NCBI GenBank assembly: GCA_951406725.2
Contig: OX597821.1
Span: forward strand, 23,126,001-23,190,000
Length of the DNA: 64,000 nucleotides
Origin: Octopus vulgaris
Taxonomy: Eukaryota
Direction of reading: 5' to 3'
This document shows, in pieces, positions 1,691 to 4,600 of this stretch (its first letter is position 1; each line of letters begins with the position of its first letter). A program made the position numbers.

Positions 1691-4600
1691 TGCATTAGCA
1701 TCTTTCAATTCAGTTTCCATTTCTTTCCAAGTGTCTTCCTGACCCCTAAGGCAGAGAAACGTACTGTATACATTGGTAGGTCATTAAAATAAACACACCA
1801 GATTGTTCATTTACAAAGTCAATTGATAGAGAAAAAGGAGAAGACAGAGAATAAAAGGAAAAAAAGTAAACAAACAAAATAAAGAGGAAAAATGAAAGAA
1901 AATTCACAGCAACAATATTCGGCACTGTCATGCCTTTGGATGTCAGAAGTGAAAGTAGAGAAATCTGACGTCAGACGTCAACTTCGTGTATTTACGTCGT
2001 CTTTCGTTTATTTACGCTTTAATTTACGCCGTTTATTTACGTACCACCACGGTAGGTAAGTAACGCGTGTGAATGTAAAAATCAAATATATCAAATTAAT
2101 AAACGCAAATTATTTAGAATGTAAAAATCAAATATATCAAATTAATAAACGCAAATTATTTAGAATGTAAAAATCAAATATATCAAATTAATAAACGCAA
2201 ATTATTTTCAAAATACTTTTTTTCCCTACTTCACTCATGCTAGCTCCACACGATGTACATATTTTCTGGGTATTCAAAAGGCCATGTCTCTTAAGCCAAT
2301 TAATGCTATCTGCTGTTGTAGCAGTGGAGACGGCAATATCGCGGTGACTAATTCCTCTTAAACTTGGATATGCAAAAGCCATATTAAAAATTGTTTAGCA
2401 CGTGTTGATATCACACTGAAAGTTTCTAACTGAATAAATTTCAAAGTTTGAATTACGCACGTGGTGGTCAGTGGTCATTCTGATTGGTGTATGTAATCGC
2501 GGTGATGGTCATGGGGGTTCATTTGTGCAGATTTTGGTGTGATTTCTTTTTTAAAAACAATAATGAATAATGCAAGAATATATTTATTCTTGCATTATTC
2601 ATTATTGTTTTTAAAAAAAGAAATCACACCAAAATCTGCACAAATGAACCCCCATGACCATCACCGCGATTACATACACCAATCAGAATGACCACTGACC
2701 ACCACGTGCGTAATTCAAACTTTGAAATTTATTCAGTTAGAAACTTTCAGTGTGATATCAACACGTGCTAAACAATTTTTAATATGGCTTTTGCATATCC
2801 AAGTTTAAGAGGAATTAGTCACCGCGATATTGCCGTCTCCACTGCTACAACAGCAGATAGCATTAATTGGCTTAAGAGACATGGCCTTTTGAATACCCAG
2901 AAAATATGTACATCGTGTGGAGCTAGCATGAGTGAAGTAGGGAAAAAAAGTATATCTGATGAAGTAATATGGTCGTGTGGAAGGCCTTGTAGAAAATCCG
3001 TGTCAATTAGAAAAGGAACATTTTTAGAAAATAGCAAATTGAAGTGTCAACAAATCATAGATATTTTGTTTTACTGGGCCAAAGAAGATTTAGCAAAAGG
3101 AATAGGACAGGAATGTCATTTAGCAAATGTAGCCGTGACAGATTGGAGGAATTTTTGCCGCGATGTATGTGCAGAATATTATGTTGCACAGAATATTAAG
3201 CTGGGAGGACCCAACAGAATCGTAGAGATAGATAAAACCGCGTTTGTTAGGAGAAAATATCATGTTGGCCATCGGGTTAAAACGCAGTGGGTGTTTGGTG
3301 CTTTAGAAAGAGATACCAGAAGATGTATTTTAGTGGCAGTGGAAGATCGGACAGCGGACACTCTTTTACAGATTATACGAGAGCGTATATTGCCTGGTAC
3401 AACAATAATTTCCGACCTTTGGCGTTCGTATAATACACTCAGTCAGCTAGGATACAGACATTTGACCGTGAATCATTCAATAAATTTTGTTGATCCGGTA
3501 ACATTTGCCACAACCAACCACATAGAATGTTTATGGAAACACGTAAAGACTCGAAATAGAAGAGAATGTGGAACAGCCAGAAATTTACTTCAGACCCATC
3601 TCATCGAATTCATGTGGCGCTATGAATTTAAGGACGATATATTCGGGAAGTCGATAGAGCAAATTCGACAGCTATATCCATGTGTTTGAGCATAAGTATC
3701 AAGACAGAATGAGTATCGCATTTATTTTTAAACTTAACTTCAAGTTTATATTTTGATAATCTCACCGTTGAAAATGATATTTGAAAATAATTTGCGTTTA
3801 TTAATTTGATATATTTGATTTTTACATTCTAAATAATTTGCGTTTTTTAATTTGATATATTTGATTTTTACATTCTAAATAATTTGCGTTTTTTAATTTG
3901 ATATATTTACACGCGTTTTTGATTTTGCGTAAATTATACGGAAAGAAACGAAGATGGACGAGAAAAAGTGTGACGTCAAAATGACGTCAGATTTTTCTTC
4001 TTTCACTTCTGACATCCAAAGGCATGACAGTGCCCAATATTCTTCTCAATACGTGTGACGTACCATTTAAGACGTCTTTTGCACTTCCTGCATGAATGGT
4101 AAGCCAGGGATCATTCTTAAATAATTTTCAGTTCCTTTTTTTTATCATTCCAAGTGCTCCTACAATTACTGGTATTGTAACTGTCTTGAGATGCCACATC
4201 TTTTCGATTTCGATTAGCAAATGTTTATATTTTCTGAGCTTATCAAATTCTTTTGCCGAGATATTATGTTCACACGGTATGCTCATGTCAATCAATAAAC
4301 AAACTTTATTGTTTTGGTCTTTCACTACAATATCTTATTTATTTGCTTTGATGGTCCGGGTTAAGTCCCAAATAATATTTACATTTTCTCCCTCAGTTAC
4401 AGCCCCAGGGTGGTGCTTGTACAATTTGTCGGCAATTCTGATTTTATAATGCCGGCACATTATCCAATGTAGATATTGACCAACTCTGTCATGTCATGAT
4501 TTCTACTCTACAGGTGCTAAAACTTCACAACCAGAGATTAGGTGGTCCACTGTTTCTATCCTATCGTTGCAGTATCAACACTTTGGGTCTACACCATGTT

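What the first reader, a model, noticed from the sequence alone, without database searches (positions are those of the whole stretch)
2188..2953. Merlin element with a built-in 368-bp palindrome mirroring its upstream region and first 56 codons
Seen: arms 2213-2580 and 2585-2953 are reverse complements (one homopolymer indel, 4-nt loop). The same upstream region, including a CCAAT box, therefore points both ways: to the full transposase and to a 64-aa ORF holding only part of the N-terminal zinc ribbon. The left arm joins the subterminal repeats as if it were an inverted gene copy lacking 2954-3779, with TAT microhomology. Inference: a self-regulating architecture (hairpin RNA feeding siRNA/ADAR, Mu-killer-like trans-silencing, cruciform DNA, or a truncated inhibitor peptide), or a relic of a head-to-head two-transposase element.
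Basis: partly seen in the sequence, partly recalled or inferred. Interest (0 to 1): 0.78.

Follow-up and report, generated by a model that had tools for sequence, protein, structure and literature searches.

The report
Octopus Merlin transposon with internal palindrome
One copy of a Merlin cut-and-paste transposon in an octopus genome carries a near-perfect 368-base mirror copy of its own promoter region and first 56 codons, most likely a recent DNA copying accident and not a built-in regulator.

Summary
The palindrome is real in the sequence. Arms 2213-2580 and 2585-2953 are reverse complements with no mismatch and one T6/A7 length difference, around a 4-nt spacer.

It lies inside a complete Merlin element at 1921-4034, not 1911-4044. 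The element has GG-ended 53-nt TIRs, a perfect 8-bp TSD (CAATATTC) and an open 301-aa DDE_Tnp_IS1595 transposase gene. The host is an octopus.

The mirrored 64-aa ORF and the split of a conserved C2C2 zinc ribbon between its two Cys pairs are confirmed.

The regulatory reading is not supported by anything I could test. Two mirrored promoters firing outward make identical sense RNAs, not dsRNA, so a hairpin needs read-through, for which there is no evidence. The "TAT microhomology" is out of register. The left end is not a copy of the right end (78.5%).

Best reading: a young, self-derived inverted duplication made by template switching or fold-back repair in one copy.

No eukaryotic DNA collection or reads were available. 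Whether other copies carry the palindrome, and whether it is an assembly artefact, remain untested.

The parts
1913..1920 (.). left target-site duplication CAATATTC
   Evidence: identical 8-mer at 4035-4042, directly outside the TIRs
1921..1973 (+). left terminal inverted repeat, begins 5'-GG
   Evidence: 53 nt, 2 mismatches (1956, 1960) to the reverse complement of 3982-4034; the 24-nt tip occurs only at 1921 and 4011-4034 in the window; CRE-like TGACGTCA at 1966
1974..2070 (+). left-end internal region, diverged from the right end
   Evidence: aligns to the right end only with many indels; whole ends 78.5% identical over 307 columns; carries AATAAA/ATTAAA on the minus strand at 2032, 2018, 2007
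2071..2208 (+). three 46-bp subterminal direct repeats (left)
   Evidence: the repeat finder D8, 100/100/98%; 96-100% complementary to 3785-3908 (I2, I3, I9)
2213..2580 (-). left arm: inverted copy of 2585-2953 (upstream region, 5' leader, codons 1-56)
   Evidence: 368 vs 369 nt, 0 mismatches, 1 homopolymer gap; mirrored CCAAT 2483, E-boxes 2458 and 2399, Inr-like TCAGTT 2428
2581..2584 (.). 4-nt spacer TATT at the centre of symmetry
2585..2953 (+). right arm: upstream region, 5' leader and codons 1-56 of the transposase gene
   Evidence: CCAAT 2679, E-boxes 2703 and 2762, Inr-like TCAGTT 2733 (motif matches only, no expression data)
2188..2382 (-). mirror ORF, 64 aa: transposase residues 1-57 plus LKIICVY read from the subterminal repeat
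   Evidence: no Pfam family; exact sequence absent from the 15-billion-protein set; no homologue of 35-112 aa
2784..3689 (+). Merlin transposase gene, 301 aa, open
   Evidence: PF12762 DDE_Tnp_IS1595 1.3e-18; D150, D211, E248 present, but K151 where 42 of 42 aligned relatives have E; AF2 pLDDT 93.1; Foldseek top hits Mos1, retroviral integrases, ISCth4
3785..3922 (-). subterminal 46-bp repeats (right), 2 full copies plus a partial one
   Evidence: the repeat finder D9
3982..4034 (-). right terminal inverted repeat
   Evidence: TGACGTCA at 3971 and 3982
4035..4042 (.). right target-site duplication CAATATTC

Best explanation
A single, otherwise canonical Merlin DNA transposon (1921-4034) in an octopus genome has acquired a self-derived inverted duplication. 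The 369 bp from about 200 bp upstream of the ATG to codon 56 were copied in reverse orientation. The copy sits between the left subterminal repeats and the element's own 5' region.

Origin (inferred). One replication or repair accident made it. Either a nascent strand left its template at 2212, copied the opposite strand from 2953 back to 2585 and returned at 2581 (two template switches, no sequence lost). Or a repair strand snapped back on itself at the AT-rich centre after a break or excision and was then joined to the left end. The first version predicts an ancestral element of 1746 bp (1921-2212 + 2581-4034).

Effect (inferred). It is a structural mutation, not an evolved device.
- The transposase ORF and its proximal promoter motifs are untouched.
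- The mirrored promoter, if active, makes a short sense RNA that runs out through the left end and encodes a 64-aa fragment with half a zinc ribbon. This fragment is probably inert.
- Only a transcript that crosses both arms (from the left end or from outside) would fold into a 368-bp perfect hairpin. In octopus that would be a prime ADAR/Dicer substrate, and it could then damp this copy and close relatives, as Mu killer does in maize.

Shown: the anatomy. Inferred: the origin, the youth of the event and all RNA-level consequences.
For: 1. The arms are identical apart from one homopolymer base. The element's two ends are only 78.5% alike over 307 columns, with indels at 1974-2070. The duplication is therefore much younger than the left/right end divergence, and the left end is a genuine left end.
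2. The centre holds no TIR or subterminal repeat. A head-to-head dimer of two complete elements is therefore excluded.
3. The element looks young and colinear with its site. It has a perfect 8-bp TSD on both flanks and 51 of 53 TIR positions matching, an open 301-aa ORF with D150/D211/E248, and CpG o/e of 1.16 against 0.71 for the window.
4. Removing 2213-2580 joins ...TTTTCAAA to TATTTATTC. This lengthens the left/right end homology by 3 nt (TAT) and creates the 8-bp palindrome AAATATTT at the switch point (read). This is weak support, given the AT-rich context.
5. Template switching in TIR transposons, with a median microhomology of 2 bp, is documented in animals (passages of PMC8277862). 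Inverted duplications of transposon sequence arising from aberrant transposition or replication are documented for Ac/Ds (abstract of bioRxiv 10.1101/2020.01.07.897926).
6. The structure does not look like a long-read foldback artefact. Such artefacts are described as reads whose two halves map to the same place on opposite strands, with the break near the read centre (Background and Discussion of PMC12870357). Here the palindrome is short and asymmetrically embedded, and the sequence returns to colinear DNA closed by a matching TSD.
Against: - No reads were available, so an assembly or consensus error is not excluded.
- No eukaryotic DNA collection was open and the window holds only this copy. 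I could therefore not test whether other copies carry the palindrome or what the canonical 5' junction looks like.
- The left arm starts exactly where left/right end homology stops (2212/2213).
- There is no microhomology at the outer junction and at most 1 nt at the inner one.
- The identity of the arms could also be maintained by arm-to-arm gene conversion in an older palindrome (recalled from large palindromes elsewhere, not tested).
- Absence of the 64-aa ORF from the protein sets carries little weight. This copy's full transposase has no match above 92% there either.
Confidence: 0.6

Rival explanations
1. Relic of a fully palindromic, two-gene element. A homology-driven switch between the inverted subterminal repeats, or an ancestral design, gave left end + inverted whole gene + centre + gene + right end. 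A later 826-bp deletion (the equivalent of 2954-3779) in the left half left only codons 1-56.
For: The left arm abuts the subterminal repeats exactly where homology to the right end stops (2212 vs 3780). The inner subterminal repeats of the two ends are 96-100% complementary over 91-138 nt (I2, I3, I9), enough to guide a template switch.
Against: It needs two events, and the deletion must start exactly at the homology boundary. The proposed TAT microhomology predicts caaaTATac, whereas caaaATac is observed. The outer left end (1974-2070) differs from the right end by many indels, so the left half is not a recent copy of a whole right half.
Confidence: 0.12
2. Assembly or read artefact: the left arm does not exist in the animal's DNA.
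For: Foldback artefacts occur in ONT and PacBio libraries (abstract, Background and Discussion of PMC12870357). The only difference between the arms is a homopolymer length, a typical consensus error. Perfect palindromes with short spacers are unstable in many organisms (recalled).
Against: Foldback reads are symmetrical about the read centre and do not return to the original strand. Here two precise junctions (2212/2213 and the centre) would be needed. The contig is colinear across the element, as the matching TSDs at 1913-1920 and 4035-4042 show.
Confidence: 0.1
3. An evolved or at least transposition-competent self-regulating architecture. The palindrome is carried by several active copies and limits the family through hairpin RNA (siRNA/piRNA/ADAR), cruciform DNA or a truncated inhibitor peptide.
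For: The transposase ORF is kept open beside the palindrome. If transcribed through, the 368-bp duplex would be a very strong dsRNA. Octopus bimaculoides has an exceptionally high hyper-editing rate, and palindromic Harbinger repeats in Xenopus are heavily edited (passages of PMC5625713). Tol2 shows that an active element can carry about 300-bp internal inverted repeats in all copies (passages of bioRxiv 10.64898/2026.01.12.699174). Merlin has recent insertions in O. vulgaris: 11 insertions in 2 families (table passage of PMC13282606).
Against: The two outward transcripts of mirrored promoters have the same sequence, so they cannot pair. No read-through source was found: the nearest recognisable host exon is 46.6 kb away and on the minus strand. 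The peptide lacks C65/C69 and strands 61-64 and 72-74 of the ribbon. This copy's transposase has K151 where 42 of 42 aligned relatives have E, next to catalytic D150, which hints at a decaying copy. No second copy could be examined.
Confidence: 0.08

Closest known systems
Mu killer (Muk) of maize
   Same: [quoted passage not shown] It can give a long hairpin RNA (abstract start of PMC3440606 in the listing).
   Different: Muk includes two copies of the TIR, has no complete transposase gene, and is transcribed by read-through from a flanking gene, with demonstrated silencing. Here the TIRs are outside the palindrome, the full ORF is retained in cis, the spacer is only 4 nt, and no transcription data exist.
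Ac/Ds composite insertions with inverted duplications (Wang et al., bioRxiv 10.1101/2020.01.07.897926)
   Same: Inverted duplications of transposon sequence made by an aberrant transposition/replication event. They are transcribed into dsRNA and siRNAs (abstract).
   Different: [quoted passage not shown] Here there is a single element with intact ends and TSD.
Tol2 internal inverted repeats
   Same: An autonomous DNA transposon with 302/303-bp internal inverted repeats that can form a hairpin, compatible with activity (passages).
   Different: The Tol2 repeats come from a foreign MITE (Angel) and are a fixed feature of Tol2 copies. Here the arms are the element's own promoter and coding start, and only one copy is known.
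Template-switch / abortive gap-repair derivatives of TIR transposons (Pack-TIRs, internally rearranged copies)
   Same: Breakpoints inside the element near the subterminal region, little or no microhomology, and a single-copy product (passages of PMC8277862).
   Different: Those cases capture foreign filler or delete internal sequence. Here the filler is the element's own 5' region in inverted orientation, and nothing detectable is lost.
KP-type truncated transposase repressors of the P element (recalled, not from a call)
   Same: An N-terminal transposase fragment encoded by a rearranged copy.
   Different: KP keeps a complete DNA-binding domain. The 64-aa product here ends between the two Cys pairs of the zinc ribbon.

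Membership tests
Merlin superfamily of DNA transposons | Transposase with the DDE_Tnp_IS1595 (IS1016-related) domain | tested here: met
   PF12762, E = 1.3e-18, 67.9 bits against a cut-off of 27. All 43 of 43 aligned relatives match it too. The criterion comes from passages of PMC8101967.
Merlin superfamily of DNA transposons | 8- or 9-bp target-site duplication | tested here: met
   CAATATTC at 1913-1920 and 4035-4042.
Merlin superfamily of DNA transposons | Terminal inverted repeats with terminal 5'-GG | tested here: met
   GGCACTGTCATGCC... at 1921 and, reverse-complemented, at 4034; 51 of 53 positions match.
Merlin superfamily of DNA transposons | Conserved D-D-E triad | tested here: met
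   D150 (conserved in 42 of 43), D211 (43 of 43) and E248 (42 of 43) are present in the window protein. K151 replaces an E found in the 42 others. Activity was not tested.
Mu killer-like trans-silencing locus | Inverted duplication of the 5' part of the transposon, including part of the transposase gene | tested here: met
Mu killer-like trans-silencing locus | One transcript crosses both arms (read-through) and gives hairpin RNA and small RNAs | not testable with these tools
   No RNA data. No gene was found reading into the element. The mirrored promoters alone give identical sense RNAs (inference from the geometry).
Mu killer-like trans-silencing locus | Heritable silencing of active family members | not testable with these tools
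   Needs genetics or small-RNA and expression data.
Long-read foldback artefact | Two halves of a read map to the same place on opposite strands, with the break near the read centre and no return to colinearity | tested here: not met
   The palindrome is 368 bp, ends at a defined junction (2212/2213) and is embedded in colinear DNA closed by a TSD. The definition comes from PMC12870357. Reads themselves were not available.
Tol2-type internal inverted repeats | Repeats derived from an inserted foreign MITE and present in the family's copies | tested here: not met
   The arms are the element's own upstream region and codons 1-56. Presence in other copies could not be tested.
Truncated-transposase (KP-like) inhibitor | The fragment retains a complete DNA-binding or multimerisation domain | tested here: not met
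   The 64-aa ORF keeps helices 13-19 and 23-32, C42/C45 and strand 50-53, but lacks strands 61-64 and 72-74 and C65/C69. Whether the two helices alone bind anything is unknown.
Zn_Tnp_IS1595 (PF12760) zinc ribbon | Match to the Pfam model | tested here: not met
   No PF12760 hit at E <= 1 in any of the 43 members. 9 of 43 give weak Zn_ribbon_recom hits, best 0.0041. The four-ligand pattern and three short strands are nevertheless conserved.

The most novel reading that the evidence does not exclude
The palindrome is not a dead-end scar but travels with a still-mobile Merlin lineage. That would be an autonomous animal DNA transposon carrying, in cis, its own Mu killer-like hairpin trigger made from its promoter and coding start. 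Any read-through transcription at a new insertion site would then produce a 368-bp perfect dsRNA that recruits ADAR or Dicer/piRNA pathways and throttles the whole family. This would be a built-in, position-dependent self-limiter in a lineage with extreme RNA editing.
Probability: 0.07. Interest if true: 0.75.

Novelty: new variant of a known kind. Interest (0 to 1): 0.33.

Why it matters
If the structure is real, it is a clean natural example, in an animal, of the raw material from which transposon-silencing triggers are thought to arise. The inverted duplication of a transposon's own 5' end is caught before any decay, and it sits beside a still-open transposase gene.

It gives a directly testable locus in octopus. 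Does a perfect 368-bp hairpin of transposon origin feed ADAR hyper-editing, small RNAs, or neither? Does a near-spacerless palindrome survive in the germ line?

If only this copy has it, it is an ordinary rearrangement of one repeat copy. Its value is then mainly as a marker of template-switch repair in cephalopod genomes.

Tried and rejected
- Other copies in the window: none. blastn of the element against the window found only self-matches. The TIR tip occurs only at the two ends (2 matches). The subterminal unit occurs only inside the element (5 matches).
- Proxy search for other palindrome-bearing copies through the mirror ORF. The exact 64-aa and 301-aa sequences are not in the 15-billion-protein set, and no candidate of 35-112 aa was found. 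This is uninformative, because the best match to the full transposase is only 92%, so this genome seems not to be represented.
- O. vulgaris repeat paper (PMC13282606). The supplement holds only tables.
- The sigma-70 promoter / intrinsic terminator scan does not apply to a eukaryote. Its 'terminators' are just the palindrome centre and the CRE-like TIR palindromes.
- Rfam gave 0 matches and ARAGORN 0 tRNAs.
- Head-to-head dimer of two complete elements: rejected, because there is no TIR or subterminal repeat at the centre.
- dsRNA from the divergent mirrored promoters: rejected on geometry, because both RNAs are the same sense sequence.
- Literature. Merlin searches (19 and 6 papers) were followed by term look-ups. 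'palindrom' and 'inverted dupl' occur 0 times in PMC8101967. 'palindrom' and 'foldback' occur 0 times in PMC13282606. I therefore found no described Merlin with an internal palindrome, but this is a narrow search.
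Full report
**What is there**

The window is eukaryotic, with many microsatellites and transposon remnants. The closest relatives of the finding's protein are from Octopus. Among 291 proteins with E <= 0.001 (738 candidates), the best are:
- O. bimaculoides LOC106883699: 81% identity over 92% of the query.
- A partial O. sinensis protein: 92% identity over 79%.
- A second O. sinensis protein: 72% identity over 100%.

The claimed palindrome is exactly as described. The repeat finder gives arms 2213-2557 / 2609-2953, 345 nt, 100% complementary. 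A global alignment of 2213-2580 with the reverse complement of 2585-2953 shows 0 mismatches and one gap, T6 against A7. The spacer is TATT (2581-2584).

Folded as one strand, the region is a single hairpin. As RNA it has -681 kcal/mol (z = -81, 0 of 20 shuffles as good). As DNA it has -464 kcal/mol (z = -65).

**The element**

The element's limits need correcting. The TIRs start with GG at 1921 and end at 4034, 53 nt each with mismatches at 1956 and 1960. The 8-bp TSD CAATATTC lies at 1913-1920 and 4035-4042. The longer inverted repeat reported (1911-1973 / 3982-4044) includes the nearly palindromic TSD.

Inside the TIRs lie 46-bp subterminal repeats, three on the left (2071-2208) and two plus a partial one on the right (3785-3922) (D8 and D9).

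The 301-aa ORF 2784-3689 matches PF12762 DDE_Tnp_IS1595 at 1.3e-18. The GG termini, 8-bp TSD and this domain are the published Merlin criteria (passages of PMC8101967). Octopus genomes are rich in Merlin:
- 191 sequences in O. bimaculoides.
- 18 families covering 2.19 Mb in O. vulgaris (supplementary table).
- 11 recent insertions in 2 families in O. vulgaris.

**The protein and the break point**

I aligned the window protein with 42 relatives. I chose these by eye for high coverage from the 120 listed hits; partial hits such as P0002 and P0004-P0006 were left out. The counts out of 43 are:

| Position | Conserved in |
|---|---|
| C42 | 43 |
| C45 | 36 |
| C65 | 43 |
| position 69 | C in 39, H in 4 |
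| D150 | 42 |
| D211 | 43 |
| E248 | 42 |

An AlphaFold2 model built on this alignment is confident (mean pLDDT 93.1). It shows two helices (13-19, 23-32), three short strands (50-53, 61-64, 72-74), a helical linker and an RNase H-like core. Foldseek's best PDB matches are Mos1, retroviral integrases and ISCth4.

The Pfam model PF12760 is not matched by any of the 43 proteins. 9 of 43 give weak Zn_ribbon_recom hits. This agrees with the statement in PMC8101967 that Merlins lack that Pfam domain, yet a ribbon-like module is clearly conserved.

The window's protein alone has K151 where the other 42 have E, next to D150.

**Context**

Only this copy is present in the 64 kb. Other recognisable features are:
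- A Tc1-like remnant at 23417-24514.
- A LINE reverse transcriptase at 40471-42670.
- Two exons of a C2H2 (KLF/Sp-like by eye) gene on the minus strand, at 52738-53532 and 50616-50888.

The last of these is 46.6 kb from the element. Nothing shows that the element lies in a transcribed intron.

**How the palindrome arose**

Three facts constrain the origin.
1. The arms are identical, but the two ends of the element are only 78.5% alike over 307 columns. The TIR tips and inner subterminal repeats match almost perfectly, while the stretch 1974-2070 is indel-rich. The duplication is therefore far younger than the divergence of the ends, and the left end is not a recent copy of the right end.
2. 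The centre carries no TIR or subterminal repeat, so this is not two complete elements head to head.
3. The left arm begins exactly where left/right end homology stops (2212/2213). The junction reads ...TTTTCAAA|ATAC.

The simplest history is a single copying accident. A strand being synthesised rightwards left its template at 2212, copied the opposite strand from 2953 back to 2585, and returned at 2581. Alternatively, a repair strand snapped back at the AT-rich centre after a break or excision and was end-joined to the left end.

Deleting the left arm restores ...TTTTCAAATATTTATTC.... This extends end-to-end homology by 3 nt and contains the 8-bp palindrome AAATATTT. That is weak but consistent support.

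Template switching with little microhomology inside TIR transposons is documented (passages of PMC8277862). So are inverted duplications of transposon sequence produced by aberrant transposition (abstract of bioRxiv 10.1101/2020.01.07.897926).

**What it would do**

Motif matches in the right arm are compatible with an internal promoter about 50 nt upstream of the ATG: CCAAT at 2679, E-boxes at 2703 and 2762, and an Inr-like TCAGTT at 2733. All are mirrored in the left arm. This is inference from motifs only.

If both promoters fire, they fire outward. The two RNAs then have the same sequence, both sense for codons 1-56, so they cannot pair.

The left-facing RNA would encode the 64-aa fragment. 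It would meet AATAAA/ATTAAA signals at 2032, 2018 and 2007 on its strand.

A hairpin forms only if one transcript crosses 2581-2584, starting either in the left end or outside the element. In that case the 368-bp perfect duplex would be an obvious substrate for ADAR and Dicer. O. bimaculoides has an exceptionally high hyper-editing rate, and palindromic Harbinger repeats of Xenopus are heavily edited (passages of PMC5625713). The effect would then resemble Mu killer (abstract start of PMC3440606). None of this is shown here.

**Artefact?**

Foldback artefacts of long reads are symmetrical about the read centre (PMC12870357). The structure here has two precise junctions and returns to colinear DNA, as the matching TSDs prove. 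I rate an artefact at about 10%. Only reads can settle it.

**What stayed unchecked**

- The Zenodo consensus library of PMC13282606 could not be read.
- I therefore could not test other copies, the canonical 5' junction, read support, or any RNA evidence.
- The absence of the mirror ORF from protein collections is not informative, because this genome's own transposase is not there either.

**Verdict**

The element is a Merlin. The palindrome is most likely (about 0.6) a young, self-derived inverted duplication in one copy. The self-regulation idea remains an untested possibility, and its simplest form (divergent promoters giving dsRNA) does not work.

It is a new variant of a known kind of transposon rearrangement. 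Interest is moderate to low unless other copies or hairpin-derived RNAs are found.

Noticed in passing
window 3231-3236 (codons 150-151 of ORF 2784-3689): This copy's transposase has K151 directly after the first catalytic Asp. All 42 aligned relatives have E there, and 34 of 43 have S at 152 where this copy has T. The ORF is open but the enzyme may be impaired.
   Followed up: partly
window 2784-3010 (residues 1-75) and alignment A1: Merlin transposases share a conserved N-terminal module of two helices plus a four-ligand zinc ribbon. C42 and C65 are kept in 43 of 43, and position 69 is C or H in 43 of 43. [quoted passage not shown] Pfam indeed does not detect it, so the module may be a diverged or unrecognised relative.
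   Followed up: partly
window 1966-1973, 3971-3978, 3982-3989: Palindromic CRE-like octamers TGACGTCA lie at the inner edge of both TIRs, one on the left and two on the right. They may be transposase or host-factor sites.
   Followed up: no
window 1-123 and 4813-4929: Two copies of a short SINE-like repeat lie in inverted orientation about 4.7 kb apart, bracketing the Merlin insertion (I7 at 78%, I10 at 93%). ARAGORN finds no tRNA in the window. If co-transcribed they would pair as well.
   Followed up: no
window 1085-1632 and 6215-6413: Segments of a dispersed repeat, 80-90% identical, each followed by an (ATT)n microsatellite (D10, D11, D15).
   Followed up: no
window 5345-5700: A GC-rich tandem duplication of about 168-174 bp, built from GCCCGCCTTC-like decamers (D6, D7, D12, D14). 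It stands out in a window of 37.7% GC.
   Followed up: no
window 23417-24514 (+): A frameshifted Tc1/mariner-type transposase remnant: HTH_23, HTH_Tnp_Tc3_2 and DDE_3 in three frames.
   Followed up: partly
window 40471-42670 (+): A LINE-type reverse transcriptase ORF set (RVT_1) with a PHD-like finger after the RT domain.
   Followed up: partly
window 50616-50888 and 52738-53532 (-): Two exons of a C2H2 zinc-finger gene. The fingers look KLF/Sp-like by eye ([18 protein letters not shown]). Pfam gives zf-C2H2 at 8.1e-10 and 4.3e-05. It is the only candidate host gene seen in the window.
   Followed up: partly
window 1921-4034 vs whole window: CpG observed/expected is 1.16 in the element against 0.71 in the window. 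This is consistent with a young or unmethylated insertion.
   Followed up: no
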